Counted from the first letter of the stretch, positions 2,745 to 49,970 are shown. The stretch: 64,000 nt of DNA from Raja brachyura (GCA_963514005.1 OY740809.1:24428001-24492000); one strand, 5' to 3'. Numbers and translations: made by a program. Notes: generated by a model from the sequence alone, not told the origin.

Positions 2745-2776
2745 AACATTTCGGATCATAGATCCTTCATCAGAAC
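2745..2776 (-). ncRNA. Minimal hammerhead ribozyme motif (Penelope-associated)
   Basis: Minus strand reads CUGAUGA-A-GGAUC-UAU-GAUCC-GAAA-UG-UU: both conserved core boxes plus a perfect 5-bp stem II. Confidence 0.65.
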
Positions 2777-2893
2777 TGAGAAAGTGAGAAAGCAAGATTT
2801 CCTAGATTTTCATTTATAATTTTAAATTTAGTTATGATTTTTCCATGTCTATTACGATAATCCTATTTTAGTTTTCCTACCATCGATACTCAC

Positions 2894-3078
2894 GTACTGA
2901 GAAACCTGCGTGAAAGGCTAAGGTACTTTGTTCGCTCGTGTGCCAGTCGACGTATAGCTCGCTGTTGGCTTCTGTCGTTATCCAACACGTTGATCAGATT
3001 GGCCACAGAGCGCATCGTGTCAGCGTTTCTGGGGATCGCCAAGAGGAGTCTTCTGTCATGATCCCCGCTAAGGCACTG
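2894..3078 (-). CDS. Candidate internal coding exon of an unidentified gene
   Basis: Pyrimidine tract plus ttag acceptor and GTGAGT donor (2893-2888). 185 nt open in one frame (QCLSGDHDRRLLLAIPRNADTMRSVANLINVLDNDRSQQRAIRRLAHERTKYLSLSRRFLS). CpG-rich and not repeated in the window; no protein recognised. Confidence 0.3.
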
Positions 3079-3189
3079 CTAAGGTGAGATAGAATAGGAG
3101 ACGTATCAAAGTAAAGCCATTAACAGTAGTTAGATAGAATCTAGTTAGATGAATGACAGGCTGAGGAAAACCTAGGGTGGGAGGTGGGC

Positions 3190-3951
3190 AGCGCTGGTGA
3201 CACTAGTGGCACCAGCAGTGGCTGCCTCACCCACAGTCTGTCTGTCCTTTCTTTTTTGATATTTTTAGTATGTGTTGAAAGTATGTTTTAATGTTCCTTG
3301 GTTTGTTTTATGTGGGGGGTGGGGGGGGGAGGAGGAGGGGGATGGGGGGGGGGGAGGAGGGGGTTGGGAGAAAACCTTTTTTTCAAACTCTTACCTCGAC
3401 AGAGATGCATTCGTAACTCCGTCCCCACTGCGGCCTAACATCTTGGAGTTGGCGGCCTTTCCTGGGCACCGACCCGGCGCTCCAAACCGCGGGAGTCTGC
3501 GGGAATTTTAACATCGCAGAGCTTGCAATCCCTTTGCCGGGGAGCGAAGCTCCAACCGCGGGGCCTGTGGACTTTAACATCGTGAAGCCTGCAGTCTCTG
3601 GTAAGAAGAGGCCGACTCAGGAGCTCCATGCTGCGGAGAGAGTTTCAATCGCCCCGATGTGGGAGTTTCGATCACCCCGACGGGGGCTTCGATTGTCGGC
3701 TGCAGGGGCTTTGATCGCCCCGACTGCAGGTGGTTTGACTGGCCCGACCGCGGGAGAACAAAGAGGAAGATTGAACTTTATTGCCTTCCATCACAGTGAG
3801 GAATGTGGAATCCACTGTGGTGGATGTTTATGTAAACTTTTATGTGGTTGTGTGTCTTGTTGCCTTTCACTTAGTATGACTGTATGGTATCTGAATTTTC
3901 ACTGTACCTTAATTGGCACATGCGACAATAAACTGACCTTGAAACCTTGAA
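3190..3951 (+). mobile_element. Non-autonomous retroposon with Rex1/Babar-like 3' tail
   Basis: Ends GACAATAAA followed by (ACCTTGA)n, like the Rex1 tails at 19870-19903. GC-rich interior with repeated ATCGCCCCGA motifs and a long G-tract; no recognisable coding domain. Confidence 0.55.
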
Positions 3952-5297
3952 GTAATTCTACAGATTTGAAAGAAAAACTGGTAATGAAAAACCGTGAAAG
4001 AAATCTTAATTCTATAATAGTGAATGCACAAGAAGAAGCAATGGACAATGTCTGAGCTGCATTTGATCAATAAGCCAGCTTGGGCTATTAAATTAAGCTA
4101 ATACTTCAGCCCCTCTCCCACAACTGATGATGGAGAAAAGCCAATTTAAAAAATGAAATCTGCAATCTAAAGTGATCACTCCACTTCAGCTTGGGAAAGC
4201 ACGGTTTAAAATAATAGGAGTCTGGAATTAAAACAGAATGAAGATCGTAGGTGAAACCAATCTCTGTATCTCCCTCCATGGCCCAATTTGGCTTGCAAGA
4301 AAGTAGGGACAAGATGCTGGAATCCTACTGTTATGTGGCAAGTGCCAAGCAGTCTGCTTTCAGTGGCGGCTTCACTTGTGCAGCAGTTAAGGCTGTTTCA
4401 CAGACCTGCTGGCACACACTTGATTCTAGAGTTGCTGAGACATATAACCAGAGCACCTCACCATGGCTGCAAACCAAGATGATAGGTTTGGCTTAGCAAA
4501 AGAGATGGTCTATAATTACTGAACTTAAGTTCTTGCTAAGTTGAAAAAATGTAATGAATGACTATCTGTCCCAGCTCGAGCAATGAAATCATTAAAGCTC
4601 CATCTTTGAACTTGTTCTTACAGATACAACAACATTGCCAATATAAATAAGAGTGGCAACATTTTGCAAAATGCAAAAATGAAAAAACTTGCAGAATATG
4701 TTTTCTGATTTAAAAGATACATATTTTTGTGTTGCAATTGTAAATGTTAAAAGGAACTTAAGCTAATGGTCCATATTGTGGATATTTTACTGTTGTTCAT
4801 CTAACTCATTGATACAAATGCAAGACAGGGACATTGTAGCAGTCAATCTTTAGTTGTGAATCACACTCTGGCACGTAGGGACCGGTAGATTTTGTGGGAG
4901 TTGTCAGAATCAGAATGTTTAAGAAAGAACTGCAGATGCTGTAAAAATCGAAGGTAGACAAAAATGCTGGAGAAAAAATCAGCAGGTGAGGCAGCATCAG
5001 AATCAGTCAGAATTTGTCAGAATCAGTATTGTATGTTCTAAGACTATTCAATGTATTTGTTGTGATGTACAATTCCATTTTGAGGAAGAGATTCAATAAT
5101 AAAGGATAGTCCTCGACATTACGGGACAAAGTTAGTGATTTTCTTTGCAGGTTCCCTATATTCCGCTAACATGTTTATTGACAGGCAACGCAAAGTGCGT
5201 ATGAAAATCAGACGGTGGAAAACTGAAGCAAAAACATGAAAACTGGAAAAATACAGCGTCAAGCAGCATTTTTCAAGAGAGGAACAGACCTGATTTT

Positions 5298-5390
5298 AGA
5301 CACAAAATGCTAGAGTAACTCAGCGGGACTTGCAGCATCTCTGGAGAGAAGGAATGGGGGACGTTTCGGGTCGAGACCTTTCTTCTAAAC
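5298..5390 (-). repeat. Penelope-derived short repeat with degenerate hammerhead
   Basis: Minus strand reads tagaagaaaggtctcgacccGAAAcgtc...gagatgctgc...cccgctgagttactc; the CUGA box is mutated. Confidence 0.75.
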
Positions 5391-5814
5391 AGACCTGATG
5401 TGCTTGTTGGCCTCCTCTGTCAGTATAGTCCATTGATGTAAGTCTTGCAGACACTGTGGATCTGTACTGCAGAAGCAGGCTTTCATGTTTGTGAATCTTA
5501 CTTTGTTATTAGTTCAAGGGTACTGGACTGAACCAATGTCCAGTGGTGGAATCTATCTATCGCTTGGAACCGACCATAGTTGGGGGTTTTTCCAAATAAA
5601 GTACATAAAGTTGTGGTCATCCCCCAGGTGTCTCAACTCCTAGTCATGTGCCTCACCATTTCCTCCTCAACCCACCTCTGCCTACAAGCTTGACCACATA
5701 CCAAACACATTCAGCGCACCCTCGCATCACCCACAACCTCACCACCCAGTAGCAAATCCTCCCAGATAACTCCTCTCCGGATCCTGATCCTCATTGACTG
5801 ATTGATTTTATGGA

Positions 5815-6615
5815 GCTTAACTGTTTTGCCGAGCACTTACACTCTGCCCGGAGCTCCTGGCTGCAAGCCATTTTAATTCCTCTCCCCATTCCCACACTAA
5901 ACATGCTGCTTCTTGACCTTCCCCACTGCCAGGGTGAGGCCAAATGCAAACTCGAGGAATAGCACCTCATATTCTGCCTGGGTAGTCTCCAGCCTGAAGC
6001 CATGAACATTAATTTACCTGATATCAGGTCAATGCTTCTGCTCTTTCCCCATCTCTCCCCAGCTAATCCACGCTGCTCCTGTCACACCCACTGCCTCTAT
6101 CATCCAATTTGGATGGAATTTCCCTTCTACTTTCATAAAAGGACTGGACAAGCTAGATGCAGGAAAAATGTTCCCAATGTTGGGCGAGTCCAGAACCAGG
6201 GGCCACAGCCTTAGAATAAAGGGGAGGTCATTTAAGACTGAGGTGAGAAAAAAAAATTTCGCCCAGAGAGTTGTGAATTTATGGAATTCTCTGCCACAGA
6301 GGGCAGTGGAGGCCAAGTCACTGGATGGATTTAAGAGAGAGTTAGATAGAGCTCTAGGGGCTAGTGGAGTCAAGGGATATGGGGAGAAGGCAGGCACGGG
6401 TTATTGATAGGGGACGATCAGCCATGATCACAATGAATGGTGGTGCTGGCTCGAAGGGCCGAATGGCCTCCTCCTACACCTATTTTCTATGTTTCTATGT
6501 TTCTACTCTGTCATTCCTGATGAAGGGTCCGAACCAAAATGTTGGTTGAGTATTTCCCTCCACAGACGCCGCCTGGCTCATCGAGTTCCTCCAGCGGCTC
6601 ATTTGTTGCTCCACA
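5815..6615 (+). mobile_element. Penelope-like element 3' end (GIY-YIG C-terminus plus hammerhead-bearing terminal repeat), split by a CR1 3' fragment
   Basis: 5820-6015 encodes FAEHL...HFNSSPHSHT...HCQGEAKCKLEE*HLIFCLGSLQPEAMNI, the PLE endonuclease C-terminus. After the CR1 insert comes CTGATGAAGGGTCCGAACCAAAA (6517-6539). Confidence 0.8.
6135..6505 (+). mobile_element. CR1 LINE 3' end
   Basis: Encodes MFPMLGESRTRGHSLRIKG...RVVNLWNSLP...GY*, followed by the 3' UTR stem-loop and a (TATGTTTC)n tail; very similar to 24470-24848. Confidence 0.92.
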
Positions 6616-7555: not shown

Positions 7556-7574
7556 CTATATGGAGATGTTGAGG

Positions 7575-7850: not shown

Positions 7851-8694
7851 ATCTCCACCCCTTGGCCAATCACTCACCAGGCTTTACCCCACCGCTACCT
7901 CTCTTTTCCAGCTATCTCCTCCTCTCTCCCTGTCTGAAGAATGGCCCCAAACCAAATCTGTCCATTCCTTCCGCAGATGCTGCCCGACCCGCTGAGCCCA
8001 ACTAGCACTTTGTTTATTTGCACAGTGAGCCCCCCACATTTCACTATTTCTTTTAGTAGAAACTTTCGAGTGAAACCATCAGAAACAAGTGTGCAACTTG
8101 TTATGCAATCAGTGACCTTTGATATTATTTTCAGGTTATCTGACATCTTCTGAACAAGAAGTAATCAGCATATTAGCTGCTAAAAATGTTGTCCCTTGTT
8201 AGACAAACAGGGGAAAAAAATAAAATTGAACATCACATAACAAAGAAATGTAATCTATATAACTAAAAGTTTCATCTTGACCACTTCCTGTCTGTGCTGT
8301 ATATTGATTTTAGAAAAAAAGGCTACCATATATCGCTATAATTTTTGGCCATCTTACTCACAGTCCTCCTCCGCTGAGGCAGCCCTGAGGATTTTCCCAA
8401 TTGATGAAAAGTAAAAAAGTTATGAGTGTTTAAAAAATCTTGCGATCAGCTGATTGATCCTCTCGCCTGTCAATCGCCACGATGAAGGTAACGCCCCTTC
8501 TGGTGGGGGGGAGGGGGGCAGGACTATAAAACCCAGGATGCCTGGACATGAATCAGACACTCTGGAAGATCACGAGGGAGAGGCCACAACTGTCATTCTT
8601 AACTGTGACTCAACTGAACTGTGAGTCTGCAATATACTTGCAACAAATGATTTGTTAGCCCTTAATGACAATGCAGTGAGTTGTTTGGCAATTT

Positions 8695-8900
8695 GGTGGC
8701 CTGCACTCTGCTTGGAATGCTGTGAAATTGAATGTGGTGGCCTGCACTCTGCTGGAAATGCTGTGAAATTGAATGTGGTGGCCTGCACTCTTGAAGGTGG
8801 CCTGCACTCTGCTTGAAATACTGTGAAATTGAATGTGGTGGCCTGCACTCTGCTTGAAAAGCTGTGAAATTCAATGTGGTGGCCTGCACTCTGCTTGAAA
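8695..8900. repeat. ~41-bp minisatellite inside the Helitron
   Basis: GGTGGCCTGCACTCTGCTTGRAATGCTGTGAAATTGAATGT, about 5 copies, one truncated. Confidence 0.95.
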
Positions 8901-8921
8901 TGGAATTTCAAGGAATAGCCG

Positions 8922-9090
8922 TGAGTGAACTGCCAGCCCACCAGTCCTGAGTGAATGAGCTGCCAGTCCACCAGCCTTGAGTGACTGAGCTGCCAGCCCA
9001 CAGGGCCTGAGTGACTGAGCTGCCAGCCCACCAGGCCTGTGTGACTGAGCTGCCAGCCCACCAGGCCTGAGTGACTGAGCTGCCAGCCCA
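8922..9090. repeat. 30-bp minisatellite inside the Helitron
   Basis: GAGTGACTGAGCTGCCAGCCCACCAGGCCT, about 5.5 copies. Confidence 0.95.
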
Positions 9091-11160: not shown

Positions 11161-12861
11161 GAATTCACTGCAAAATCTCCTCAATGAGTCTGAAAAAGGG
11201 CACCGTCCCAAAAGCTCATCTACTCATTTCCCTCAACAGAATGTTGCCTGGTCCACTGAGTTCAGCAGTTTGTTTTTTGCTCACGATTTCAACATCGGCA
11301 GTCTCTTGGGCCTAGTTATTTTGAATGTTATTTAATGGAGCACAACATTTGAAATTAAATGATTTCCTTGTGTCCATGCCTATGCAGCCGTCAACGAACA
11401 TAAATGAGAGTAGAAACAAGGATGCTGGTTTACAAATGAGAACATAGAGCTAGAGTAACTCAGCGGGTCAGGTTGCATCATGGATAGGTGACTTTTCAGG
11501 TCGGTAGAAGGTCCATAATTGAGAGAAATCCATTGAAGTAAATTCCAGACAGAGAACCTTAAACTGATTTTAACTGCCTCTCATATACCTCATTCGATCA
11601 TCTCCTCTCACATTAATATTCCCTTTGTCCCACCTCTCCTCTCCCCTACTTTCTTTTCCATCTGAAATTACGTTTATCTCTGTTTTCCAGTTCCGATGAA
11701 GGGTCGACGATCTGAAATATTAACCATTCCTTTTTACACGAGTGCTGCCTTGCTTGCCGAGTTTATCCAGAGTTTTCAGTTTTTATTTCAGTTTTCCAGC
11801 GCTGCATTTTTAAAATATTTTCATTGACATGAGTTTGGTTCGATGGAGTAGTGTGAAGCCTGCAATGGAAAATTAACAGCCTTATTATTGTAGCTCTCCT
11901 GATTTTTCTTCCTGTTCACCTGGAGGGATTAATTTCCCCATTGCAGATCAATGACACCCTTTGGTACTTTTGGTACTGTGTCAAAGAATTCACATCACAA
12001 TGCATAAAAATGTTATATTTACAGAGGTCGTTCATCCCATCATGTCTATGCTACAATGTATAAAAGCATTCAACTGGGTCCACTTTCCCCATCCTTTCTC
12101 CATTAGTCCTGCACTTCTATCCTTTCAAGTACTCATCTCCTTCACTTTTCAATGCCACAATTAAAGCTGCCTCCACTACTCGTTGGATTCCAACCACCAA
12201 CTGTGTTAAAAAACTTTTTCCACATGTCACCTTTTGTTCTTTTTGCAAATTACCTTCATTTCATGTCCTTTAGTTACTGAACGTTCCATCAATGGGAACT
12301 GATTTGTTCTATTTACCCAGGCTAGATCCTTCCTGAACTTAAATGCCCCCATTAGACTCCTCTGCAATCTCATTTGATTCAAAGGGAACCCAGTCATGCA
12401 AAGAAAGTGTCAGTGTATGACAGGTTAATGAGTCCATTTGCACCTTTGCAAATGCAACCCTTCACAAATGTGTCAGTTTCACACCTTGTACTTCACTAAA
12501 ATGTGCAGCTTAGTGCAATTGTCAGTGTTTGCAGAATTTTCCATCAGTTTAATTTAGTGATAGCTACTGATCTCAAATATGTGCCTTATTAACAATAGTG
12601 AGAATAAACTGGCTGGAAAGTTTAAATAAACTATTTTCCTGGCTACGGAATTATCAAGGAGTTCATGGCTGCCAGCTAAAACCGCTGATTTGAAGCAGCA
12701 CAACGTTCTTAGCACAACTCCGTCATTGAAAATTGATTTTGAAAAGCAGTGAACGAGTGGAGATATTATTTCACCCCCAGAATAAATCATGTTCATTAAG
12801 AGTGATGTGGAACTATTTGGTTGTTTTGGAGAATTCAGGAGCTTGAATAAGAGGTGCCGCT

Positions 12862-13497
12862 CATGAAAGCCATCTCGAGGCCTTCTCCACTGCCTCTGTG
12901 GTGTTCTTGATGGCTCTTCTCCTCTACATTCCGTTGATGCCCAGTGCACTGAAGGCTTTGTAGAGCGATTGCCCTGCAAAACTTCTACATCCAACCTCGA
13001 TGGGCATACACCTTGCCTTCCAGCCCTGCTTACGGCAGTCTATGACCAGCTCTTCGTACTTGGTCTTCCTCCTCTCGTGGGCCTCCTCCAGACGGTCCTC
13101 CCACGGCACTGTCAGTTCCAGCAAGACGATGTTTTTGGTCGCCTCTGAGACCAGAAGGATATCTGGCCTCAGGGTGGTCGTGGCAATCTGCTGTGGGAAC
13201 TTCAGCTGTTTCACCAGGTCTACAGAAAGCTGCCAGTCCTGCACAGTCGCAGGATTCCTGACGGGTTCCTGGCTGCTGTGGTTCTTGGCAGGTGCACTCT
13301 GGCCTTCACGAAGGTGATCATCTGGGTGGTGGGCCGTGCTCGTCTGCAGCTGCTGATTTCCATGCTGATGGCTTCTGCAATGGGGTTAAGAGCCTGGTCG
13401 TGACGCCAGGTGTACCGGCCCAGCCCAAGAGCCTTTGGGCAGCAGCTCATGATGTGTTCCAACGTCCCCTTGCCTGAGCATTGTGGGCAATCTGGAG
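12862..13497 (-). mobile_element. Hero-like (R2-group, RLE-bearing) non-LTR retrotransposon C-terminal fragment
   Basis: CCHC knuckle CPQC...TLEHIMSCC, YTWRHDQ, then (after a frameshift) LRPDILL...LLELTVPWE...KTKYEEL...PIEVGCR, a PD-(D/E)xK restriction-like endonuclease. Confidence 0.88.
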
Positions 13498-13595: not shown

Positions 13596-13712
13596 TCAGT
13601 CTTAAGAAGGGTACCGACCCAAAACATCACCTATCAATTCCTTCCACAGATGCTGTGTGACCCGTTGAATTTATCCATCCTCATGTTTCCAGCATCTGCA
13701 GTTCCCTGTGTC
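13596..13712 (+). repeat. Penelope-derived short repeat, degenerate hammerhead
   Basis: cttaagaagggtaccgacccaaaacatcacc...agatgctg...ccagcatctgcagttcc. Confidence 0.7.
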
Positions 13713-13831: not shown

Positions 13832-14035
13832 CTGAAGATAGATACAAAATGTTGGAGTAACTCAACGGGGCAGGTAACATCTCTGGAGAAAAGGAATCTT
13901 CAGAATCTGAAGAAAGGTTCCGATCCAAAACATCACCTATTCTTTTCCTCCCGAGATGCTACCTGACCCGCTGATTTACTCCAGCATTTTGTGTCTGTCT
14001 TCGGTGTAAATCGGCATCTGCAGTTCTTTCCTATA
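13832..14035. repeat. Palindromic head-to-head Penelope-derived repeat
   Basis: The 13832-13903 arm is the reverse complement of the 13906-14003 arm; CTGAAGA box at 13907-13913. Confidence 0.8.
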
Positions 14036-15107: not shown

Positions 15108-15423
15108 AATTATCCTGATATTTTGCTGTATCCTTGAATCTGTTGTTCCGCTTAGTGAATCTAAACGTTTTATAGTAGCAGCAATCTTAAGGTAGAATAG
15201 CGTACACTGCATGCGTGAGAACAGATATGTCTCTTTTCAGCCCCATCTGCCCATCATCCACCCAGTACTCCCATCTGATTCCACCTAACACCTATTCGTT
15301 TCTGCACCACCCCTCCCTAGTACTGATATCTACTAACAGAATTAACTGCTGTATTATCAGTACGAGGAGGCTGAGGAGAGGAGGCTACGCAAATTGCTGG
15401 AGAGGGAGAGACGAAAGAAGGAG

Positions 15424-24849: not shown

Positions 24850-25224
24850 CTTTTCAGGATCTCGGCTCGAAACATTGCCATATAAGTTCTACTATCATTC
24901 TGGTTCTTCAGCTAGATTCCAGCATCTGCTGCCTAGGTTGTCTTCTTACCTCTTGTGTATCCAAACTCACTCATGACACTGATATGGCAGTCTAAAGAAA
25001 AATAACGACCTGAAACATCACATATCCACGTTCTCCAGAAATTCTGCTTGACTCGCTGAGTTACTCCAACATTTTGTGTCTTCTTTTGTAAACCATCATC
25101 TGCAGTTCACTATTTCATAATGGTAGAAAACCAATTGAATTGGAAAGACATCAGAGAATGGCAACAAGCTTTTAAGTCAGTCAACTGCATGCTGATGGTT
25201 ATTAGTGGCCAACTGATTTCATAT

Positions 25225-26709: not shown

Positions 26710-26835
26710 TGGAAGGAACTGCAAATGTTGGTTTAAACAGAAGATAGACACAAAAATCTGTAGTAACTCAGTGGGACGGGCAGCATCTCTGGAGAGAAGA
26801 AATGGGTGACATCTCGGGTCGAGACCCTACTTGAA
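26710..26835 (-). repeat. Penelope-derived short repeat, degenerate hammerhead
   Basis: ggaaggaactgca...gtaactcagtgggacgggcagcatctctggagag...gggtgacatctcgggtcgagaccc. Confidence 0.75.
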
Positions 26836-29214
26836 TCTGTCTTTATTCTAATCACTTGGGCTGGCCCTGTTTTGTCCTTAATTGCAAAAGTGAAAACTTA
26901 ATTAAGAGCCCAGAGAAATAAAGACAATAACAAATGATTTGAAAGCATAATTGCGACCTAAACAGAGTGGCTAATCTTAAATGGCTGAAGTGCTGTGTGG
27001 ATGCATGTGCGTTGGTGTATGGTTGTGTGTATTGGTGGAAACAGGCAGTTTTATAAAATTATTTTTTAGCTGATCACAATGTGTTCTTCCATATGAAAGC
27101 TGTTCAATCACCACCAGAATAAGCAAGCGATATTAGTCCATAGATTAACAATGGTCACAAACACATCGATAAGGAGATAACACTTGGATTTGCATATTGT
27201 CCTAACAAATAAAAATAAATACTCTGAATCAATTTGAAGTGCAATGACTGTACTGGTGGGAATTGCACATAGTTTGTGGCAAGGTCACAGCTACAAACAT
27301 AGTTTGATCTTCCTTCGCACTTTGTCTTCACCTTGTGGAAATGTTGAATAGAAGCATAGCTTCAAGCTCAGTACTGCTGCAGTTTACTCAGAATAGGCCT
27401 CCAAGTATAATCTTCGTGTAGCTGCAAACAGGCTGCAGAATTCAAAGAGTTGAAAGCGCACAATAACGTGCATGATTCTCAGTTTGCAGCAAGATGATAA
27501 AAATGGGAGAACGTGCGGAGCTAGTCACTCAGATCTGAGCAGCGCTGGTACGCATATGATTTATGTGAAACCAGGCAGCTGTATAAGCACATAGATAGCC
27601 AGAGATGAGCAAGATAAGCATGGCAGGAAATTGCCTGAGAACAATGTCGCTAATTGTCAAATTATGCTGAAAAAGTTTAACCGAGAATGCAACAAAAGTT
27701 TTTTTTTCCCAGTTGTGTGTTTGTGTACGTGTGGATAGTTTCTGATGGCCTGTTCTCTTTCTTCTCACCTTAAACTCCAGCCAGTCTGCCAGTTGCAAGC
27801 CTCGTACGTATAAATGTTTGCAGGGTATAAGCTGTTTCATTGACTTGGACCCATGTTTCTGGATGATCATTTAACATCTGATCGTTAATTGCATTTGACA
27901 AGGAATTCATATTTTCCTAGTTCTTTAATGTTCCATGAGTCATAACCTGAGTTGTTATGAGACGCATCTACATGGTCATTGAATCATATAGAAACAGACC
28001 CTTCCACTGAGCCCACACCAAACATAACCACCCATTTACACTAATGCTACATTTATCTCTATTTACATTTTTCCTATTTTTCCTAGGCTCACCTGAGATT
28101 CTACTATTCATCTTCACACTGGGGGCGATTTATAGTGGACAATTATCCTTTCAAACCCGCATGTCATTGAGATATGGGGAAGAACTGGAACAGCCAGAGG
28201 AAGCCAATGTTGGGAGAAGGTGCAAACTTCAAACAGACAGTGTCGGTCATGCTTGAGCTTTGGTCTCTGACATTGTACTGCGCCACTGTACCATCCTGAC
28301 AACATTCATGTGTAGGAAGGAACTGTAGATGCTGGTTTATACTGAAGATAAACACAAAATCCTGGAGTAACTCAGCGGGCCAGGCAGCATCTCTCAGATG
28401 AAGAATAGGAGACGTATTGGGTTGGAATGATGATTGTCAAGGATGGCACGTGAACCCTATCGGTATTCTAAAGATGTTTCTAAAGCTCTTGACGGCTGGG
28501 CACATCACACATCACCCTTTAAAACTCCATGTAGCATTGAAAACAATATGACATGCCTTACAGTTTTGAGCAAATTATTGGCAGTTGCTAATCAATGATG
28601 TTGGTTTGCTGAAGAATAGATATGTTACACATCAGAGGTGATAAAACATTAGAAAAACAACATTTTTCGCAATTTTTAGAATGTACTGGTGAGACAAAAA
28701 AACAAATGAATCATTTAGATCATAAACTGATGTGGATTCATACAGCACAGAAACAAACTCTTTAGCCCACTGAGACTTCACGAACCATCGAGAACCTATT
28801 TTATACTCATTCCATTTTATTCTTGCCACATTTCCTATTAACCTCTCCCCAGATTCTGCCACTCGCTGCACAGTTCATTGTGGTTGATTCACCTGCCAAC
28901 CCACATGTTGTTGGGATAAGGGAAGAAACTAGATAACTTAATTAATTTATTGCTAATTGGTGTTAGCTTCATTTATGATATCCGATTACCTTTAATTAGA
29001 AGTTCTATAAAGTTGCTTTCAAAAATAACAATTCTTTATAAACACTGACACCAACAAATTCAAACATCAAGTGTTAAAGGTCATGCACGTCCCACTACAG
29101 AATGGATAACTTGCTGTTGGAACTGTCTCACGCTGTTTTCTTGTGAATGATTCAGATCTGACAACTCAGAAGTTAAAACTTGATCATAAAACATTTTCTG
29201 ATTACTTGTAAAAA

Positions 29215-33060: not shown

Positions 33061-34254
33061 CAGGAAATGGAATTCCATTGAAATCAACAGAACTGAATTT
33101 CCGAGGCAGAGTACAACATAACACAGCACAATTAGTTCTGGCAATGGGGAATGAATTTTCAGGTACAAATACATAACGATGACAGTGATTCTCACAGTCT
33201 CACTGAGCACCACCAGGGACCAATCAGCAATAAATCAAAGTGATTAATGAGCCACTTTATGATGTGGTTAACGTAATTAAAAAAACTTCCCATTGAGTAT
33301 CAGTTCCAAAAAAAATTTTGTTTGAAATCGAAGATAAATCACCAGGATTTTCGGATACTGCTTCCTCTTGAGTCCATGGAAAGGAAAAATAGATTAATAT
33401 CTCAAGGGGAGCTAAGAAGCGGGCATTGTGGATTTATTCAATGCTATTGAAAATGTTAAAAGGTGTTTGAAACTCCTTTTAGTTGGCCAATTTATTTGGA
33501 AACTTAATTTAGCAGTAAAAAAAAAACAAGGCTTGTGATCAGGGATATGTTCTTCCTGAGGAAAAGGACTTTGATTAATGGCTGATGAGAATTGGGATTG
33601 AGGATTATAGAGATTTAGAGCATATGGTTGTAGGCCCTTTCATCAAGGCTTCCTGTAGATGGCCCAAACTTCCAAATTAACCCTACTGAATGGAATGGTT
33701 ATCTGACGTGATATGCCAGAGTGATTGTCCATGTTATAATCTATCATTATAACTGTGACTTATTCCTCGAGAGAAAGAATTATGAATTGAAATGTAGAAG
33801 CTTACAAATAAAATCAGAAAATATTAGGCCTGCTCAACTATTCATGTAGCATCCACAGAGAAACAGTTAACGTTTTGGTCAATAATCTTTCATTAGATCT
33901 TCGTGGAAAAATTAGAGAGCAAACAAGTTGTAAAATGCAGAGCAAAGCTGATGAAGGAATGAAAGTGGTTAAATAGAGTGATTCATCTGATCAACAAAGG
34001 TGCAAGAGGCAAAATGCTGTTCTGTATTTATCTTCCAGGAATGTCCAAATTAAGACAATTCCACTCTTCTCTCTTTCCTCCTGTTCAGAGTATCACTGAC
34101 TTGGCTTTTGTGTTCTTGACTACTCAACTAAAAGATTGCCAATGTCAAAAATCTGAACAAAAACTAGAATCCTCTGAAGATAGTCAACAGGTCAGAGAGT
34201 ATGTAGGGAAAAAACTGAGCTATCGTTTCAGGCCAATGACCTCAGGACATTTCT

Positions 34255-34562: not shown

Positions 34563-35496
34563 TGTTGAAAGATCATGGACTGAAACGTTAACTATTTATC
34601 TCCACATAAATCCTGCCTGATCTGCTGGATATACCCTGCATTATCTATTTGTATTCCAACTCTGGGTAGTTGACTTGATTTTCAATATTTCTATTAATGC
34701 CAAAGTTCTTCTTCTTGGCAGTATTCTGCTTTCCGAATTCACCTTTAAAATGTTGACCACCAACCCCAACATAAGCCACGTGACTTCAATAAAGATCGAA
34801 AGTTGATGTATTGCAATGGTCTGCGTTTTATTTGAGATACAATGCACTCTTTGTCGGTCTGTGTGTAGGTTTCAGTAACTGCCAACAATAATTTGATCTA
34901 CTTTCCCTAATTATCCTCAACTGCCTGGCAAAACTGGGTGTGTGAGCAATGTTCTCAAGCGAATCGTAGCACATTGTTTTCCGTTGCCCATCCTGCCGTA
35001 TGTTCACTCATTCTGAGTATTGTGCATTGTTTTCAAACAACACTTTTGCACCTTTGCATCCGAACTAGACGAGAAAAAAAACAGATAACACATCCCTCTA
35101 ATAAAGAAACTGGGTGGAGCAATGTGTCACTCTGTCCTTTTCACCTTTTACATCTCAATTTGACCCAGACGAAAGACGTGATTATTTCCTTTCCTTCTAG
35201 CAGTTAAGTGCAGAGTTTGCGGGGCAAAATGTAGGCATCTGATTGAGATGAAATAATATAACAAACTTCAACCATATTCAATGAAAAACTCAAATAGCGG
35301 GGATTTACTTCCTATCCGATCTTACCCGGAATTATTCCATTCGTTTTTTCAAATGATCTCACTGCACTGCTGTTGAAGAGAGGGACTTGATGGGAGTGGG
35401 GAGGATGGTGGGGAGGGGTCTTTATGGAAGCTGGTGGCCTGAGCTGGTTTAGTCATGCATGGTGAGAAACGTTTTCTGATATGAGGTAAGGTAAAT

Positions 35497-36107: not shown

Positions 36108-36111
36108 ATAC

Positions 36112-36320
36112 ACAGGAAACTGCAGATGTTGGAATATTGATCAAAACACAAGGAACTGGCGGAACTCAACTGGTCAGGCAGGATCTGTGGTTGGAATGGG
36201 CAGGGGACGTTTCAGGCCGGGGCATTTCTTCAGAAAAGTGTCCCTACCCAAAACATCGCCTGCCAATTCCCTCCACAGATGCTGCCTGGCCTGCTGAATT
36301 CCTTCTGATCTTTGTGGTGT
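36112..36320. repeat. Palindromic Penelope-derived repeat with intact hammerhead core on the minus strand (36206-36233)
   Basis: Minus strand reads CUGAAGA-AAU-GCC-CC-GGC-CU-GAAA-CG-UC; the plus-strand arm follows immediately in inverted orientation. Confidence 0.75.
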
Positions 36321-37440: not shown

Positions 37441-37994
37441 TATGGCAGGGAAGAATGTCTTTGGCTTCTACTAAAGCCTAGATGTCTTTCAAATGCATGT
37501 GAGACAGCTGACATGAATTGAAAATTGCCCACTTAACAAAACATAACTCAAATGAAGACTTATCATTATCGTTATCCTTTACCTAATCTTCCGTTAGTTA
37601 GCGTGATGGCTATTTTTATTGTCATTAGGCAACTCACCTATTCTCTTGAATGCTACTTTCCCTAAAAGTATTTCTACTTAGGTCTAATTTATTTTTGGGC
37701 ACAACTATTAACGAAAACATGGATATATTTTGCGTAAAGATGGCTTTTACGATGTTTAGTTGTCCATTTGTTGCTGTTATCCATACCAAGTGGAACCAGG
37801 CAGAAATACCTGTAGTGGCACAGCTGGTAGAGTGCTGCCTCACAGCGAAGGAGACCCAGGTTTGATCCTGACCTGTTGAATTACTTCAGCACTTTGTGTC
37901 TTTCCATGAGGTGGACATTGTTGTTTAAAAGAGCTGCTTTCTCCAATTTACCTCACTACACGATGCCCGCTCACACCTGTAGTAGAGTTAGATT

Positions 37995-41062: not shown

Positions 41063-41827
41063 CGACCAGGGTGTTTGTCTCGAGCATAAAATATTTTCTT
41101 TAAGATCTATCAAGCAAAAATTTTAAATAGGTAGATTACTGGTAGAAAGACTTTAAGATTTCAGGAGCTTGCAGCTCAAGGATAAATATGTGGCATGGTG
41201 GTGCAACAGGTAGTGCTGCTACCTCATTGTTCCAGCAACTCAGCAACTAAGGTATGATCCTGACCTCTGGTGCCGTTTATGTGGTGTTCCACATCCCACA
41301 TTCCCCTTGCGAAACCGCTATTGCTCTGGTATCCTCCAACGTCCCAAGGATGTCAGTAGGTCAATTCGCTGCTGTAAGGAGCCAAAGAGCCTGAAAAACG
41401 CACCTGACCCAAAACAGCAGCTGTCCATTCCCTTCCCAGGTGCTGCCTGACTCGATGCGAACCTCCAGCACTTTGTGTTTAGCTACTGTAAGTTATCCCC
41501 AGTTTGGATGAGTGGTCAGAAAGTCAGTGAAGAGTTGGTTAGCACATAAAAGAGAATAGGTTACAAAGAAATGAGTGGGGGATTGAGGTGAACAGTTAAA
41601 AAAAATACACCAATGCCGGAAATACAAAATTTAAAAAGTGCTGGAAAAATCTCAATGTCAGGAAGCATTTGTGGAAAGAAAAGCAGAGATAACATTGCAG
41701 GTCCAAGACCCAATTTTGGATCTGAGGAAGTGAGAATATGCGTTTATTTTCAGTCGCAACGAGTGTCAGGGTAGGAGTGGGCATAACAAAGGAAGAGCAG
41801 AGTAATACCTGAGGAGTTAATGCAGCC

Positions 41828-41998
41828 GACACAAGGAACTGCAGATGCTGGAATCTTGAACTCAGCCGTTCAGGCAACAACTGCGGAGGGAATTGACACT
41901 GATCCGTCTGAAGAAGGATACCAACCCGAAACATAGTTTGTCCATTCCCCCTCACAGATGCTGCCTGACACGTTGGGTTCCTCCAGCACTTTGTGTTG
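41828..41998. repeat. Palindromic Penelope-derived repeat with hammerhead core boxes
   Basis: CTGAAGA-AGGATACCAACCC-GAAA-CATA at 41908-41935, preceded by an inverted arm. Confidence 0.7.
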
Positions 41999-43359
41999 AG
42001 TTCAACAGGCTCTAACGTTGTGTTGTCCATACCTGACATCAGATTACCACTGGTTCCTCTATAATTGCCATGCAAGTTTCTTGCCCTATGAAATTACCTT
42101 TTCCAGGTCTTATATCATTTTTTACTAGAAGTAATTCTCCAACAGTACCTGACACCAGTGTAGAAAAGGGGCCTTTATTTGCTTTTCACAGCTACTTAAC
42201 AAGCTTAATAAACCATTCAGCAAAAATGTTGCTGTTCAGAGAACTTCCTAATGCAAACCAGAATTTCTGTACAGGTGGTAGGAAAAGCAGACAGAAAGAA
42301 AAATAAATATAATTGCACAGATTGTAATTCATGAAGCTACTTTCAATTGATTGGTTCTAGTATGCTGCAGGAAAACTCAGATCTCTATTTAGTTTCAGTA
42401 TTGGAAAACCACACAGAGCTGTTAAAATTGTTGAGATGGTTGGGGATCATCTTGATGGTTTTTATTCTAGATGTGAAATGTATGCATTGTTGAAACTCCC
42501 ATGAATTGTGGAGAAAATAATATGATGCTAGGAAGACACATTTACTATTTAGGTTATTAAGTTAGGCAGTTCTAATTCTCAATGGGCAGCTTCCCATTCT
42601 CTTGCTAACCATCATGATCCATCATGTAAGAATCCTGTCACCATCAATGTAAATGAAAACGGCATCCATCTATCTTACTTACTTTGTGTATAGGTTCCAG
42701 AGGATGTTGGAAATACTCTGCAGGTCAGGCAGCATCTGTGGTGAGAAAGGGGAATTATCAGTTAATTTGCAGCACTATTACATGCTAATGCTAATGCTTC
42801 TTTCCTTGACGGTGGGTATTTTCAACATTTAGCAGATCACATCATATAAATGGATGAGCTCAGCATTTATCCACAATCTCGAGAGCTTAGTTGCGATTCC
42901 CTCTCTAACTTTCATGCAGAAATGACTATTTATTTCTTGAACCTACCATTCCTTCCCTTCTCCTTTTAGTCCTGTGATATTCTCAAAGAACATAATTAAG
43001 TAGCAGATTTCTTGAATGAAAAAATAAAACACCAGAACTATTTGCACAACCAGATGTTATATTTGTCTCCTTAGCACCATTTTATCAAATTGCAACTTCT
43101 GTGAATTAGTACAAGGAGTTCCATAAGAATGGCCAATTCTACCCAACACGGAGCAGGCTATACTTGAGATGATATTACACAGATATGATTAAGAAATGAA
43201 ATTTCCATAATTAAATTTAATTTTACATTCAGTTGAGGAGGAGAAGAAAGGCTCCAACTCTACTATTTTAGCTTTAAATACGGACAACTATGAAGTCATA
43301 CAGGAAGAGTTGGCTAAAGTATATTGCTACATGAGCTTAAGGGATATGTCAGGCAAAGA

Positions 43360-43570: not shown

Positions 43571-43699
43571 CCAGTCAAGATGCATTTGCAGACATTCACG
43601 AGGATCTTTCAGATTGCATTGAATGGAAACATACCCATGAGAACAAAAACCGAAATAGAACCTGTCCTTAACCACCATCCTTGGCTAACTAACCAAATT

Positions 43700-43833
43700 A
43701 GTCTAAAGAAGAGTATGGACCCGAAACGTCACCCATTCCATCTCTCCAGAGATGCTGCCTGTCCCAACTGAGTTACTCCAGCTTTTTGTGCCTATCTTCG
43801 GTTTAAACCAGCATCTGCAGTTCCTTCCTACAC
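43700..43833 (+). repeat. Penelope-derived short repeat
   Basis: gtctaaagaagagtatggacccGAAAcgtcacccattcc...gagatgctgcctgtccc.ctgagttactccagc. Confidence 0.8.
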
Positions 43834-44819
43834 AAGTTAAATATCGAACTTAAAGAAAAAAGATATTATAATGTGGGAGGCATGTCAGAAGATTATACAG
43901 AGTATTTTAAAAAGCAGCAATAAATGATTGAAGATTGATAAGGAAGGAAATTGAGAGCAACAAACAATGCTAGCCAAGAGACAATAAGAGTATTTGGAAA
44001 AGAAAAGATTCACAAAATTACTGTGGGGCTCATAGAAAGTGAGTCAGGAAAATTAACAATGGAAAACATGGGGATAGCATTGCATTATTTTGCATCAATC
44101 TTCATTATAGAGAATACAAATTACATCCCAGAATTAGCTTTAAATCAAGAATTAGCGAAAAATAGTGGGAGTCAGGTAAATTACCATGGATGAGGAACTG
44201 GGCAAATTATTGCAGCTGCAGGCTGATAAGTCTTTGGTTTCTGATAATTTATCCTTGGATCTTAAGAGAATGGGTTGGCGAGAGAGATGGTTTCCCTTTC
44301 CAAAATTCCTGAAATTCAGGAAATCAGTTCAGTGTGCAGGACATGAGTTAGATAATGGGCTTTTGGACATAAGCTAAGCTGTGGAGTTTTTAATAACAAA
44401 TCCTGGCTTCCATTACAGGCTTTTTCATTCCATAATTTATTTCACCAAATTTTATCGGCCTCACAGAGGTGGTGTAATTTGAACTCCTACTGTTGAATCT
44501 TCTATTTAAGCTATGGATTACAAGATCAATTTTAAATAGGCTGCTGTATTGAGTTGGAAATCCAGTCAATAACGTTCAGGCTACCACGTTCAAAGAGCAC
44601 ATAGCCGATTCAGTTCAGCTCTGAACATCAAAGCAAAATGGCCTAGACATTGCATTGCATCATGCAAGGTTTATGTGTGCCATTTGACTGAATTTCAATG
44701 AAAAATAAATTGACATGGATCAGAGACTTGTCTAAAAGATTGCAAAGAGGAACATTCTCCTTCCTGGTTCTCCACACATCAGATGTCCTGATCCTTGAGA
44801 AAGCTTGACATAAGCAATG

Positions 44820-45142: not shown

Positions 45143-45899
45143 CTGTGGTGTTTGATATGCCTCATCAATCATTTTCAGTGGTGCCCTTTGGTTCTAAATG
45201 GAAGAGGGCACCCACACTTAAGCACGTGAAGAGAGCACCAGTGGAGATTACAGTACTGGCAGAATAGACCTGATGGGCCGAATGGCCTAATTCTGCTCCC
45301 ATCACTTATGAACTTATGTTCCCTCCCACTTTGGCTGGCTGACCATGTGGAGTAAAAGCATTTGTGCATGTTAAATGTGCAAGACAGGATCTATTTCACA
45401 CAATATATGTGGCACAGTTGTAGAGTTGCTATTTCAACCTATACAGTGTTCCTACATGAAGCCCTTATTCCTCTCAGTTGAATGAAACTCCTTCCCAGGC
45501 TGATGAATTTTAAGTGTGAGCTTACGTTCAATACTCTGGTGTAGTGTGAAGGTAAGTCTGAAGAAGGATCCTATCCCAAAACATCACCTGTCTTAAGTCT
45601 GAAGAAGGGTTCTTTCACTGAAAAGAATAAATTGACAAAATCCATGTAATGCTTTGGCCTCCCTCCAAGAATGATTTCCCATCCACACTCTCAACCCAAC
45701 TTAAACCTGTCATGTTGTAATTGGGCCATTGTTGTTGTGTGTGTTTTAAAATGATGATGTGCTATAATGCAATGGTGATATTTTCACTGCCAAGAGCGTG
45801 TAATCAAGAAGGAAGTATACCTAGTTCAAATTTATCTCAGTGTTAAGAAAAGTTCAAACAACAGAAGCTAGTACGTTTTTTAGTAAAAAAAAGATACTC

Positions 45900-47120: not shown

Positions 47121-47939
47121 TTTTTACACCAGGTTTTAATGTTGTGCACTTGTTCAATATGTTTGTTCGTCGATATTTTGTTAAGAAACTGCAAAATGCT
47201 TGGTGTGTCCTTGACAAGGCTGTCCAGAAAACCCTCAATTGTCAGCTGGATAGACCACATCCTCAGCGTGATACTGAATGGAGAATTAGACAGAAAAACA
47301 ATGTGACAAACAGAAGAAGAATGAAACTTGCTGACCCAAAGAATAACCAAATACATGAAAACCAAAGGAGAGATTGCCTCAGATTCAAGAATGCACTCAA
47401 GTTCTAATGGATAGAACATTTTCTGTAGAATATATGAAGAAGTTTGGAGGAAAGCCGCAGATGATGAGAATGGAAAGTAAATATCTTTGAATCTTCCTGC
47501 AACTTCCATACATGTCATCGTGCTGGGTATCTCTAGTTGAAAACTGCCCACATAAGAATTAGAAGGTCCTGCGAATGTTAAATGGTGATAAACCTTACTA
47601 AGTAAAAAAGACTAGCTTTGACATTTGGTTTGTGCTGTGCTCGGGCCCCTCACCATTGACTCTCGTGGTCGTGTCATTTGTACCCCAAATGCAAAAAAGG
47701 GAAGAACCAGAAGTTAGTTGGGTAATGATTAGGGAAATTGAGGAGATGTCAGGAGGATAAAAGCACAAAATAGCTAATATCCCAGTTTTAAATTGCTCTA
47801 CAAGAAAGGTGTGTGCATGTCAATTACAGATAGACCCTGATTTAGATTTACATGCAATTTATTGTGAAATAATCATTCAAAAGTCAAGAAGTGGTGAGGT
47901 ATTTTTGCCACTAGTAGTAAAGAGTATTACTAATACTAG

Positions 47940-48100
47940 AGAGAGTTACTTAGAGCTCTTAGGGCTAACGGAATGATGGGTTTTGGGGAGAAAGCAGGAA
48001 TGGGTACTGATTTTGGATGATCAGCCATGATCATATTGAATGACGATGCTGGCTCGAAGGGCAGAATGGTCTACTCCTGCACCTATATTCTATGTTTCTA
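47940..48100 (+). mobile_element. CR1 3' end
   Basis: gatcagccatgatcatattgaatg...ctcgaaggg...ctcctgcacctat..tctatgtttcta. Confidence 0.88.
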
Positions 48101-48609
48101 AGAGTATTGCATATCAAAATATTTGTTTATTAATACAAAAATTGTGCATTCTGTACAGAAGGCATTCCATTATGAACTCTTAGATGATGAGGTTTGCCAC
48201 TAAGAAATTCAGTCAAAAATGTACTTTTAAAACTTCAGGGTTCTGAAATTTGATTGAACGACTGCCAGGTCGTTGAGGCATTTGCATTATACCCAGGCAG
48301 CCTCAAGAAAGTCAGCAAGCTTAAAGTTGGTATAAAAGCTTGGAATTTGGATCATCCGGGCCAATCTCATAAAAGTCTATTTTACCCAAGGTAGATTGGG
48401 CTAACAAGGTAAAACTGCCCCCTTTTAAGTAATTGGACCAGGTACCTCAGTGCACTAACAGACCTGACAATTTTCTGGCATCAGACATCCACTTATCCAC
48501 TTAATGACTTCACCACTCACGCCTCATCCACTTCAAGCCCCACATTATAATTGGAACAAGTTATGGCCATTGTGGAATAGTAACGGCACAACCAGAAGTA
48601 CACATTACC

Positions 48610-49508
48610 TCAAGAGTCAAGAGTCAAGAGTGTTTTATTGTCATATGTCCCAGATAGGACAATGAAATTCTTACTTGCTGCAGCACAACAGAATATGTAA
48701 ACATGGTACATAACGGAAGGAAAACAAGTTCAGTGTGTCTGTATACACATGCACACATACTCAATAAATAAACAAATATAGTCCAATAATAATAATCATC
48801 TGTTGCAGTTCAGAGCTTATTTGTTGTTGTGTTTAATAGCCTGATGGCTGTAGGGAAGAAGCTGTTCCTGAACCTGGGCCTTACAGTTTTCAGGCTCCTG
48901 TACCTTATTCCCGATGGCAATGGTGAAGTGAGTGTGTGGCCAGGATGATGTGGGTCTTTGATGATGTTGGCTGCCTTTTTGAGGCAGCAACTTCGATAGA
49001 TCCCTTCGATGATAGGGAGATCAGAGCCGGTGATGGACTGGGCAGTGGTCACAATATTTTGCAGTCTTTTCCGCTCCTGGACGTTCAAGTTGCCGAATCA
49101 GGTCACGATGCAACCGGTCAGTGTGCTCTCTACCGTACACCTGTAGAGGTTCGAGAGAGTCCTCCTGGACCTACCGAATCTCCGTAATCTTCTCAGGAAG
49201 TAGAGGCGCTGATGTGCCTTCTTTATAATTGCATCAGTGTGCTGGGTCCAGGAAAGATCTTCGGAAATATGCACGTCCATGAATATAAACAGGATTGTGG
49301 GTCCTCATCCTTCCCCTTCCAAAGTCCATAATCAGTTCCTTGGTTCAACTAATGTTGAGAGCCAGGTTGTTGTGCTGGCACCATCTGGTCAATTGGTCGA
49401 TCTCATTTCTATACTCTGACTCATCACCATCTGTAATTCGTCCAACGATAGTGGTATCGCCAGTGAACTTGATGATGGAGTTCGCACTATGTCTGGCTAC
49501 ACAGTCAT
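48610..49508 (-). mobile_element. Rex1/Babar RT C-terminus and 3' end
   Basis: IIKFTGDTTIVG, KTKELIMDF, EDLSWTQHTDAIIKKAHQRLYFLRRL and PLPSGIRYRS; (CTCTTGA)n tail. Confidence 0.9.
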
Positions 49509-49876
49509 GTTGTTGTTTTTATTATTATTTAAAAGGGAAACTCAGACTGAATAGCTTCAAAATGTAGCTGCTAACAATGTCATTCAATGGGTGCCACAGT
49601 GGTGACATTAATGAATCATGTTGAAGACCCCTGGCAAGTTGGAATTACGTTGTTGGCAAGGCCTGTACCAGTACCAGCAGCTGTCACATTGGCATACCTT
49701 TCAGAAATTAGATTTGGCCTGGAATTAGCATGAATTTCAACAGTGCTATTGTAATGAGAATTGTCCACAACAGCAAATTAGCAAGACGTTATCAAAGTCA
49801 AAAACCAATGTGTGATTGAGCTTTAACATCAAAATGCCTTTCCCATCTTACAGCCAAATTTGAATTTGTTTTGGTA

Positions 49877-49970
49877 AGACACGAAACGCCGGGGTAACTC
49901 TGTGGCTCAGGCAGCATCCCTGGAGAACATATATAAGTGACATTTCGGGTCTGGACTCTTCTTCAGCCTG
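49877..49970 (-). ncRNA. Penelope-derived repeat with intact minimal hammerhead core (49937-49966)
   Basis: Minus strand reads CUGAAGA-A-GAGUC-CA-GACCC-GAAA-UG-UC-AC. Confidence 0.65.

What the first reader, a model, noticed from the sequence alone, without database searches (positions are those of the whole stretch)
2745..49970. Dispersed family of minimal hammerhead ribozymes in Penelope-derived short repeats
Seen: a dozen or more ~100-130 bp repeats share the pattern CTGA(A/T)GA-A-GGGTC-nn-GACCC-GAAA-CG-TC. Both core boxes plus a stem II are intact at 2745-2776(-), 36206-36233(-) and 49937-49966(-). The boxes are intact with a weak stem at 41908(+). Degenerate copies occur near 5360, 6517, 7933, 11190, 11693, 13600, 13907, 24990, 26810, 43700 and 45558. 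Stem II varies in sequence (GGAUC/GAUCC, GGGUC/GACCC, GCC/GGC) while remaining paired. Known: Penelope-like elements carry minimal type I hammerheads whose stem III is reduced to a short palindrome (here ACGU) and which are proposed to act as dimers. Inference: an abundant non-coding, ribozyme-bearing retroelement family (retrozyme-like) able to cleave host pre-mRNA or produce circular RNAs. Many mutations are CpG-decay type (CGAAACG to CAAAACA).
Basis: partly seen in the sequence, partly recalled or inferred. Interest (0 to 1): 0.78.

Follow-up and report, generated by a model that had tools for sequence, protein, structure and literature searches.

The report
Decayed Penelope hammerheads in cartilaginous fish
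The short repeats are real end-pieces of a Penelope-like jumping gene in what appears to be a shark- or ray-type genome, and they carry the small "hammerhead" self-cutting RNA motif already described for such elements, but nearly every copy here is damaged and stands alone, so they are most likely inactive relics.

Summary
The repeat family is real: 30 profile hits in 64 kb (26 at E<1e-3; none in the reversed window). Its 5' end has the minimal type I hammerhead layout described in Penelope-like elements (PLEs) in 2014. The PLE link was tested: a broken RT/GIY-YIG ORF tail (5825-6028, +) lies upstream of one copy on the same strand, and three head-to-head pairs and a ~40-nt optional tail match PLE insertions. 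Two DNA runs lay about 130,000 contigs each on one copy and restore an intact core. The copies in the window are mostly dead. Only 4 of 19 keep both core boxes, 8 of 19 lost catalytic G12 by a CpG-type change, and none keeps core, both helices and the palindrome together. Covariation is weak, mostly between two subfamilies. 'Retrozyme-like' is not supported: no tandem units, and the unit ends are not at the cleavage site. Cleavage of host RNA and circle formation are untested; no host gene was identified. The scan found this kind before in other cartilaginous-fish genomes. One open detail: most copies seem to start three bases before the core. Verdict: new member of a known kind.

The parts
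2740..2778 (-). Subfamily B hammerhead fragment, the best-kept copy: full core, 5-bp helix II, helix I 4 of 5 pairs, UG in stem III; preceded by a pyrimidine tract ending in AG; downstream part lost
2669..2721 (+). Partial copy without hammerhead, tail-to-tail with the 2773 fragment; long pyrimidine-rich stretch upstream (about 2410-2668)
   Evidence: E=0.0025, weak
4958..4998 (-). 3' fragment with tail
5242..5297 (-). weak older fragment, adjoining the 5298 copy
   Evidence: E=0.0038
5298..5385 (-). Subfamily A copy closest to consensus (89%), first box truncated; flanked by a 12-bp direct repeat (likely target-site duplication)
5825..6028 (+). Broken C-terminal end of a PLE RT/GIY-YIG ORF (in-frame stop; alignment gaps suggest a frameshift upstream)
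   Evidence: (tblastn E 8e-12 to 7e-6)
6120..6505 (+). LINE 3' end (CR1-like, label recalled; boundaries approximate) inserted between the ORF remnant and its hammerhead repeat
   Evidence: resembles by eye the end of the RT-bearing LINE at 56951-58651
6517..6605 (+). Hammerhead repeat read as the 3' pLTR of the ORF remnant; G12 lost
7933..8017 (+). Copy with pyrimidine-rich upstream part; G12 lost, 6-nt deletion over stem III
11190..11277 (+). Subfamily A copy; G8 and G12 lost
11441..11505 (-). 5'-truncated copy
11688..11776 (+). Subfamily B copy; U4 changed to C; strong acceptor-like tract upstream
13601..13688 (+). Subfamily A copy; G5 and G12 lost
13840..13996 (.). Head-to-head pair 13840-13898(-) / 13907-13996(+) with palindromic junction; G12 lost; folds as a long hairpin
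   Evidence: z=-12.3
24992..25081 (+). Subfamily A copy with tail; G5 lost
26746..26832 (-). Subfamily A copy with tail; 4 core changes
28350..28426 (-). 5'-truncated copy with tail
33825..33896 (-). Old subfamily B copy; G5 and G12 lost
   Evidence: (E=0.004)
34172..34242 (-). Old truncated copy
   Evidence: E=0.002
34564..34644 (+). Subfamily B copy, first box damaged
36144..36316 (.). Head-to-head pair 36144-36233(-) / 36234-36316(+); the minus copy keeps both boxes and ACGU but has no helix I and is largely paired to its antisense arm
   Evidence: z=-8.5
37867..37901 (+). 3' fragment
41391..41480 (+). Subfamily A copy; 3 core changes
41635..41719 (-). Old subfamily B copy; 5 core changes
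41844..41996 (.). Head-to-head pair 41844-41898(-) / 41908-41996(+); plus copy keeps both boxes, weak helix II, CA in stem III
42704..42752 (-). 3' fragment
43700..43834 (+). Full-length solo unit (135 bp) with tail, used as reference for public runs; G5 lost; predicted cleavage site after 43730
45555..45625 (+). Two truncated hammerhead 5' ends 41 nt apart, same sense; first lost G12, second lacks U16.1 and a good helix II
49877..49969 (-). Subfamily A copy; both boxes kept, helix I first pair broken, UG in stem III
61301..61364 (-).

Best explanation
These are mostly dead solo pseudo-LTR pieces of endonuclease-bearing Penelope-like elements in a cartilaginous fish. In the active element the pLTR follows the RT/GIY-YIG ORF and holds a minimal type I hammerhead that works, if at all, as a dimer or with help from the PLE protein. 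Reverse transcription starts internally about 90-130 nt downstream of the core, on uncleaved RNA, and runs upstream through the hammerhead. Most products end at about the start of helix I, which leaves ~135-bp solos; some fold back and give head-to-head pairs; a few continue into the ORF. After insertion the copies decay, CpG first, and lose catalytic residues. Shown here: family, motif layout, ORF-then-hammerhead order, end positions, inverted pairs, decay. Inferred from other PLEs: internal priming, uncleaved template, dimer or protein dependence. Not shown: any cleavage or transcription.
For: Family and boundaries: (summed depth in X6 rises from 667 in 43690-99 to 291,761 in 43700-09 and falls from 1.4 million in 43830-39 to 2,423 in 43840-49; loose ends cluster at 43833-35). 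Intact family core: loose ends before 43718 restore the first box and helix II in all 4 runs. ORF remnant: 16 phmmer hits, 5 of 8 looked up from whale shark and 1 from a skate; their longer relatives include P0023, which has RVT_1 below cut-off (E=9e-5) and GIY-YIG above cut-off and hits 5825-6028 at E=6e-7. Order in an independent element: a zebra-shark PLE protein model (P0025) reads on into its pLTR; its last 18 residues score best, among 127,864 window positions, on the copy at 11190, and 4 of the top 13 positions are hammerhead copies. Head-to-head pairs with palindromic junctions and a 30-40 bp tail are described PLE traits (PMC3846280; bioRxiv 2021.04.23.441226). Internal priming 111-118 nt into the ORF, uncleaved substrate and protein-assisted cleavage: PMC11167929. 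Helix I changes in a compensated way between subfamilies (G-C in A, U-A in B). Decay: 15 of 19 copies have a core lesion.
Against: No full-length PLE lies in the window and no whole genome was held. The ORF-to-hammerhead link rests on one locus interrupted by a LINE plus one protein model from another species. Covariation is modest (score 0.228 against 0.175 shuffled, 15/500, a control that ignores relatedness), and RNAalifold finds no structure. Subfamily A has only a 2-bp helix I in the window plurality consensus. Non-CpG core positions are better kept than downstream positions (18 changes against 28-39 expected of 161; 4 intact cores against 0.8-1.8 expected). Selection on the source elements explains this, but it does not exclude selection on some inserted copies.
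Confidence: 0.85

Rival explanations
1. A non-autonomous SINE-like family in its own right: the 135-nt unit is transcribed from its own 5' end (three bases before the core) and is copied in trans by the PLE enzyme, rather than being a truncation product of full elements. This refines the best explanation rather than replacing it.
For: Sharp 5' boundary near 43700, with letters upstream differing between runs. 5 of 13 subfamily A copies read AGT there and 3 more keep the AG. Very high abundance. Subfamily A lacks the ATG that subfamily B and the Anolis element have in the first box.
Against: The boundary comes from one reference copy with unique flanks, so longer pLTR forms appear only as minority loose ends. 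Copies at 7934, 2669 and 6517 run further upstream. No transcription start data.
Confidence: 0.3
2. One reading: a retrozyme-like family whose copies are active ribozymes that cut host pre-mRNA or make circular RNA, for instance by dimerising in trans through the ACGU palindrome.
For: The family consensus core is intact; density is one hit per ~2.5 kb, so long transcripts would carry many copies; 36 and 30 contigs in two DNA runs show direct repeats of the unit; 4 of 19 copies keep both boxes.
Against: No tandem array in the window. Direct-repeat joints are 36 of 133,148 laid records, though contigs break at repeats and some joints were not counted. Unit ends are not at the cleavage site, and none of the 15 joints shown (206 not shown) maps there. 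No copy keeps core, helices and palindrome together. The 4-bp intermolecular helix III of the window consensuses is predicted unstable alone (+2.6 and +3.4 kcal/mol). Published monomers were inactive, and 8 of 9 Xenopus dimer elements showed no cleavage.
Confidence: 0.07
3. The hammerhead likeness is chance within an ordinary repeat.
For: No Rfam hammerhead match; no consensus fold; 6 single hammerhead segments fold no better than shuffles (z -0.11 to 1.16).
Against: All 11 core letters, the extra A, G10.1-C11.1 and a palindromic stem III appear together in the consensus at the PLE position described in print; two subfamilies keep helix I with different letters; slid-register controls score 0.06-0.12 against 0.228.
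Confidence: 0.03

Closest known systems
Minimal hammerheads (min-HHR) in the pLTRs of metazoan Penelope-like elements (Cervera and De la Pena 2014, PMC4209133)
   Same: Type I layout, both core boxes, extra nucleotide between 9 and 10.1, G10.1-C11.1, palindromic 15.2-16.2 with no helix III loop, mostly solo copies from truncated PLEs, some opposite-strand pairs, several consensus families per genome.
   Different: Helix II is 4-5 bp, against 7-8 bp in Schistosoma. Subfamily A helix I is 2-3 bp. I saw no cartilaginous fish in the parts of the text read or in the two supplement files searched (one file could not be searched).
Poseidon PLE of Anolis carolinensis, PAc (Frangieh et al. 2024, PMC11167929)
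   Same: Hammerhead in ORF sense; element 3' ends about 110-125 nt after the start of helix II, with a second end some 30-40 nt away (tail); copies span the uncleaved site.
   Different: In PAc the ORF start codon lies in the core; subfamily A here lacks that ATG. Clade (Poseidon or Neptune) was not determined here.
Non-LTR retrozymes of animals (Cervera and De la Pena 2020, PMC7229834; Li et al. 2026, bioRxiv 10.64898/2026.07.22.740005)
   Same: Short non-coding repeats with a type I hammerhead, related to PLE pLTRs; solo monomers also occur.
   Different: Defined by tandem units, each with a complete hammerhead (canonical in the 2020 paper), and by circular RNA. Here the units are solo or head-to-head, the motif is minimal and the ends are off the cleavage site.
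Drosophila virilis Penelope (as described in PMC4209133 and PMC2377424)
   Same: Short helix I; the intron's 3' end maps to the 5' end of helix I, as the acceptor-like tracts do in two subfamily B copies here.
   Different: D. virilis has a longer palindromic stem III and young, near-identical copies; splicing was not shown here.

Membership tests
PLE minimal hammerhead (min-HHR) | Core boxes CUGANGA and GAAA, then U16.1 and H17 | tested here: met
   Met in the family consensus; both boxes and U16.1 intact in 4 of 19 window copies
PLE minimal hammerhead (min-HHR) | [quoted passage not shown] | tested here: met
   A in 18 of 19 copies
PLE minimal hammerhead (min-HHR) | G10.1-C11.1 pair closing helix II | tested here: met
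   G-C is the commonest pair: 9 of 19, with 3 A-U, 2 G-U and 5 unpaired
PLE minimal hammerhead (min-HHR) | Palindromic 15.2-16.2, no stable helix III | tested here: met
   CG in the profile consensus; kept in 5 of 19 copies, with CA or TG in 11 and other palindromes in 2
PLE minimal hammerhead (min-HHR) | Short helix I (4-5 bp) with covariation | tested here: inconclusive
   5 bp in the subfamily B consensus (5 copies), 2 bp in subfamily A (13 copies); one compensated change between subfamilies; overall covariation modest
PLE minimal hammerhead (min-HHR) | Self-cleavage as dimer or with protein help | not testable with these tools
   Needs in vitro assay
Endonuclease-bearing Penelope-like elements | pLTR lies after an RT/GIY-YIG ORF on the same strand | tested here: met
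   ORF tail at 5825-6028(+) before copy 6517(+); same order in a zebra-shark protein model; one locus only
Endonuclease-bearing Penelope-like elements | Inverted 5'-truncated copy, head-to-head | tested here: met
   Three pairs
Endonuclease-bearing Penelope-like elements | Optional 30-40 bp tail at the 3' end | tested here: met
   Two 3' end classes near +90 and +132; main end at 43834 and opposite-strand joints between 43761-43801 and 43826-43835
Endonuclease-bearing Penelope-like elements | Full-length element with two pLTRs around one ORF | not testable with these tools
   None in the window; no genome held; motif scans of viral, prokaryote and metagenome contigs found nothing
Non-LTR retrozymes | At least two consecutive tandem units, each with a complete hammerhead | tested here: not met
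   No such array among 19 TRF rows; 45558/45599 are defective fragments; rare direct-repeat joints exist elsewhere in the runs
Non-LTR retrozymes | Canonical type I hammerhead (6-bp helix I, loop 1-loop 2 contacts) | tested here: not met
   Helix I of 2-5 bp, extra A, no Rfam match
Non-LTR retrozymes | Expression as linear and circular monomer RNA ending at the cleavage site | not testable with these tools
   No run on record as RNA was listed; contigs cannot show ends or strand

The most novel reading that the evidence does not exclude
Subfamily A is a very high-copy, non-coding ~135-nt retroposon whose fixed 5' end marks the true start (transcription start or splice acceptor) of the PLE RNA, and whose young intact copies, dense enough to occur many times in one long transcript, dimerise in trans or bind PLE protein and cut host RNA. 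A rare old copy such as 2740-2778(-) might have been kept for that role.
Probability: 0.07. Interest if true: 0.7.

Novelty: new member of a known kind. Interest (0 to 1): 0.2.

Why it matters
As it stands this extends a motif class described in 2014 to a cartilaginous-fish genome, at high density. My library searches found no paper that describes this particular family; one 2026 preprint reports tandem retrozymes in a single chondrichthyan. Repbase, Dfam and most subscription journals were not searchable. The role of PLE hammerheads is still open in print. A family with very many solo copies and fixed ends is good material for testing whether the ribozyme acts in vivo and where PLE RNA begins. 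The window itself gives no sign of present activity.

Tried and rejected
Rfam scan: no hammerhead family up to E=10; the miRNA hits are hairpins of inverted repeats, far below gathering score. Whole genome not held. Exact motif scans found 0 matches in viral, prokaryote and metagenome contigs. Pfam on all 299 stop-free frames of 60 aa or more gave LINE-type domains (RT, AP endonuclease, GDSL-like, ALKBH8_N, which I recall as LINE-derived) and a few sub-threshold hits, with no GIY-YIG and no host gene. The CC2D2A-like hit at 53527-53739 is below cut-off and does not look like an exon. An exon-like frame at 2902-3078(-) found no homologue. A crude exon finder with recalled splice weights gave 9 candidates, none convincing. 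Word-based search with the ORF remnant found nothing; PDB search with its whale-shark relative gave only E>=0.3. RNAalifold gave no structure. Pyrimidine-rich upstream stretches of subfamily A copies are not significantly alike; two of three subfamily B pairs are (p<0.005 and 0.01; the third 0.085). Target-site duplications: 1 clear case among 10 copies examined. Sequencing runs: no RNA holder listed. Variant shares (G12>A 13.6% of depth in X6) are biased by seeding on one reference copy and were not used to argue for selection. Lunse et al. 2017 on PLE hammerhead dimers was not held; I saw only its title and a review's summary.


Full report
What is in the sequence. An iterated profile built from eight named copies gave 30 hits, 26 at E<1e-3, and none on the reversed window. 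The 22 strongest hits are 60-89% identical to a 90-nt consensus. Many continue into a further ~40 nt of shared tail. Tandem Repeats Finder lists 19 rows, none of this family. Rfam has no hammerhead match up to E=10. The window is otherwise rich in LINE remnants. Relatives of the ORF remnant described below come from whale shark, zebra shark and skates, so the host is inferred to be a cartilaginous fish.

The hammerhead. I aligned 19 copies chosen by hand for having the 5' part. I left out the inverted partner at 36234, the fragments at 34172, 11441, 28350, 45599 and about 24850, and all 3'-only pieces. The consensus shows both boxes, an extra A, a 4-5 bp helix II closed by G-C, a two-letter palindrome in place of helix III, then U-C or U-U and the 3' strand of helix I. 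These are the traits listed for minimal PLE hammerheads in PMC4209133 (parts 1-2 of 4 read). Two subfamilies appear: A (13 copies, helix I 2 bp in the plurality consensus) and B (5 copies, helix I 5 bp); 6517 fits neither. One helix I pair changes from G-C to U-A between them. Overall covariation is modest: score 0.228 against 0.175 +/- 0.026 in shuffles (15/500; relatedness not controlled) and 0.06-0.12 in slid registers. RNAalifold predicts no structure.

State of the copies. 15 of 19 have at least one core change and 8 of 19 have G12 changed to A; G12 is the general base (PMC6155905, passages). CpG positions diverge at 0.35 against 0.22 elsewhere, and 41 of 55 CpG changes are transitions of the methylation type. 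A strict descriptor passes one copy, 2773(-); allowing one core mismatch passes three. Each of the four box-intact copies has a further defect. Against a purely neutral reading, non-CpG core letters are better kept than downstream letters (18 changes against 28-39 expected of 161). This is expected if the source elements differed downstream while keeping the core, but it leaves room for selection on some copies.

The Penelope link. A motif scan found a peptide at 5903-6028(+) with one stop. Read through that stop, it found 16 relatives. A search from one of them gave 29 longer proteins among 72 candidates. Of six scanned, P0023 carries a GIY-YIG domain above the Pfam cut-off and an RT match below it, and three others have weaker GIY-YIG matches. 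All 12 proteins used as tblastn queries hit the same place, within 5804-6115, at E 8e-12 to 7e-6, and show no other PLE-type fragment in the window; their other hits are LINE parts of chimeric models. A LINE 3' end follows, then the hammerhead copy at 6517 on the same strand. Separately, the zebra-shark model P0025 runs past its ORF end, and its last 18 residues match hammerhead copies best among 127,864 window positions. Three head-to-head pairs occur; the two folded form long hairpins (z=-8.5 and -12.3). Such pairs, with palindromic junctions and a 30-40 bp tail, are described for PLEs (PMC3846280, passages and discussion; bioRxiv 2021.04.23.441226, passages).

Beyond the window. Laying four public runs on 43620-43919 placed 133,148 and 129,757 contigs from two DNA runs, and 12,812 and 1,991 from two runs only guessed to be RNA. 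These are not copy numbers, but they show a very large family shared by several organisms. Depth starts near 43700, three bases before the core, and ends at 43834. Loose ends restore an intact first box and helix II, while the letters upstream of -3 differ between runs. Direct repeats of the unit are seen in 36 and 30 contigs. None of the 15 joints shown maps to the cleavage site (206 were not shown).

How it most likely works. The inserts span the cleavage site, so the template was uncleaved. Their 3' ends lie about 124 nt after the start of helix II, with a second class some 40 nt earlier. The Anolis PLE behaves this way in vitro: priming 111-118 nt into the ORF, uncleaved RNA as main substrate, cleavage only with the PLE protein, and no RNA-seq ends at the site (PMC11167929, parts 1-2 of 4 read). 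I infer that the copies are short cDNAs from the same process, now decaying. Why so many stop at -3 is not explained. It may be the RNA's 5' end, or a fold-back point at the palindrome seen in the inverted junctions. Two subfamily B copies have acceptor-like tracts ending two bases before the core (scores 5.7 and 7.8 against a 99th percentile of 5.6 with recalled weights), which recalls the D. virilis intron end at helix I (intron described in PMC2377424, passages).

Comparison and verdict. The motif is a member of the PLE minimal hammerheads on every sequence feature except a long helix I in subfamily A; activity is untestable here. It is not a non-LTR retrozyme by the tandem criterion (bioRxiv 10.64898/2026.07.22.740005, parts 1-3 of 5 read, supplements not seen; PMC7229834, passages). 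Published tests found monomers inactive and dimers weak (review PMC6765202, passages), and 1 of 9 Xenopus dimers active. Searches, and the supplement search (one file not searchable), found no description of this family in cartilaginous fish; repeat libraries were not available. Earlier notes of this scan report the same kind in other shark-type genomes; none covers this genome or this sequence. The catch is correct, the kind is known, and the functional claims are unsupported. Interest 0.2.

Noticed in passing
window 2893-3075 (-): CpG-rich open frame with acceptor-like and donor-like ends that looks like an exon; no homologue found. It lies about 120 nt upstream of the best-kept hammerhead copy, on the same strand.
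   Followed up: partly
window 19904-20067: Near-perfect inverted repeat, 66-nt arms, 97% complementary, 32-nt spacer, close to LINE RT remnants; origin not examined.
   Followed up: no
window 20343-23360 (+): Long LINE ORF2 remnant with a strong RT match (E=5e-34), apparently of a different clade (L1/Tx1-like, recalled) from the CR1-like copies.
   Followed up: no
window 15300-17930 (+) and 56951-60825 (-): LINE copies with GDSL-esterase-like ORF1 and AP endonuclease; the minus-strand one also has RT matches.
   Followed up: no
window 12924-13385 (-): 153-aa frame with a PD-like motif resembling the restriction-like endonuclease end of R2/NeSL-type LINEs (recalled; no Pfam hit).
   Followed up: no
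window 8690-9090: Two adjacent minisatellites, periods 41/60/101 and 30.
   Followed up: no
window about 24850-24920 (+): A further truncated hammerhead-repeat fragment right after a LINE 3' end, not reported by the profile (seen).
   Followed up: no
window 55661-55692 (+): Sub-threshold partial match to the CPEB3 ribozyme model (23.8 bits, cut-off 35, E=0.063); probably chance.
   Followed up: no
window 53527-53739 (+): Sub-threshold Pfam match to the CC2D2A N-terminal C2 domain (E=0.002); no clear exon seen.
   Followed up: partly
protein P0014 (XP_078266213.1): A skate neuromedin-U receptor 1 model ends in the C-terminus of this PLE ORF; P0008 (VKOR) and P0012 (zinc finger) begin with it. 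Either annotation errors or exonised PLE pieces.
   Followed up: no
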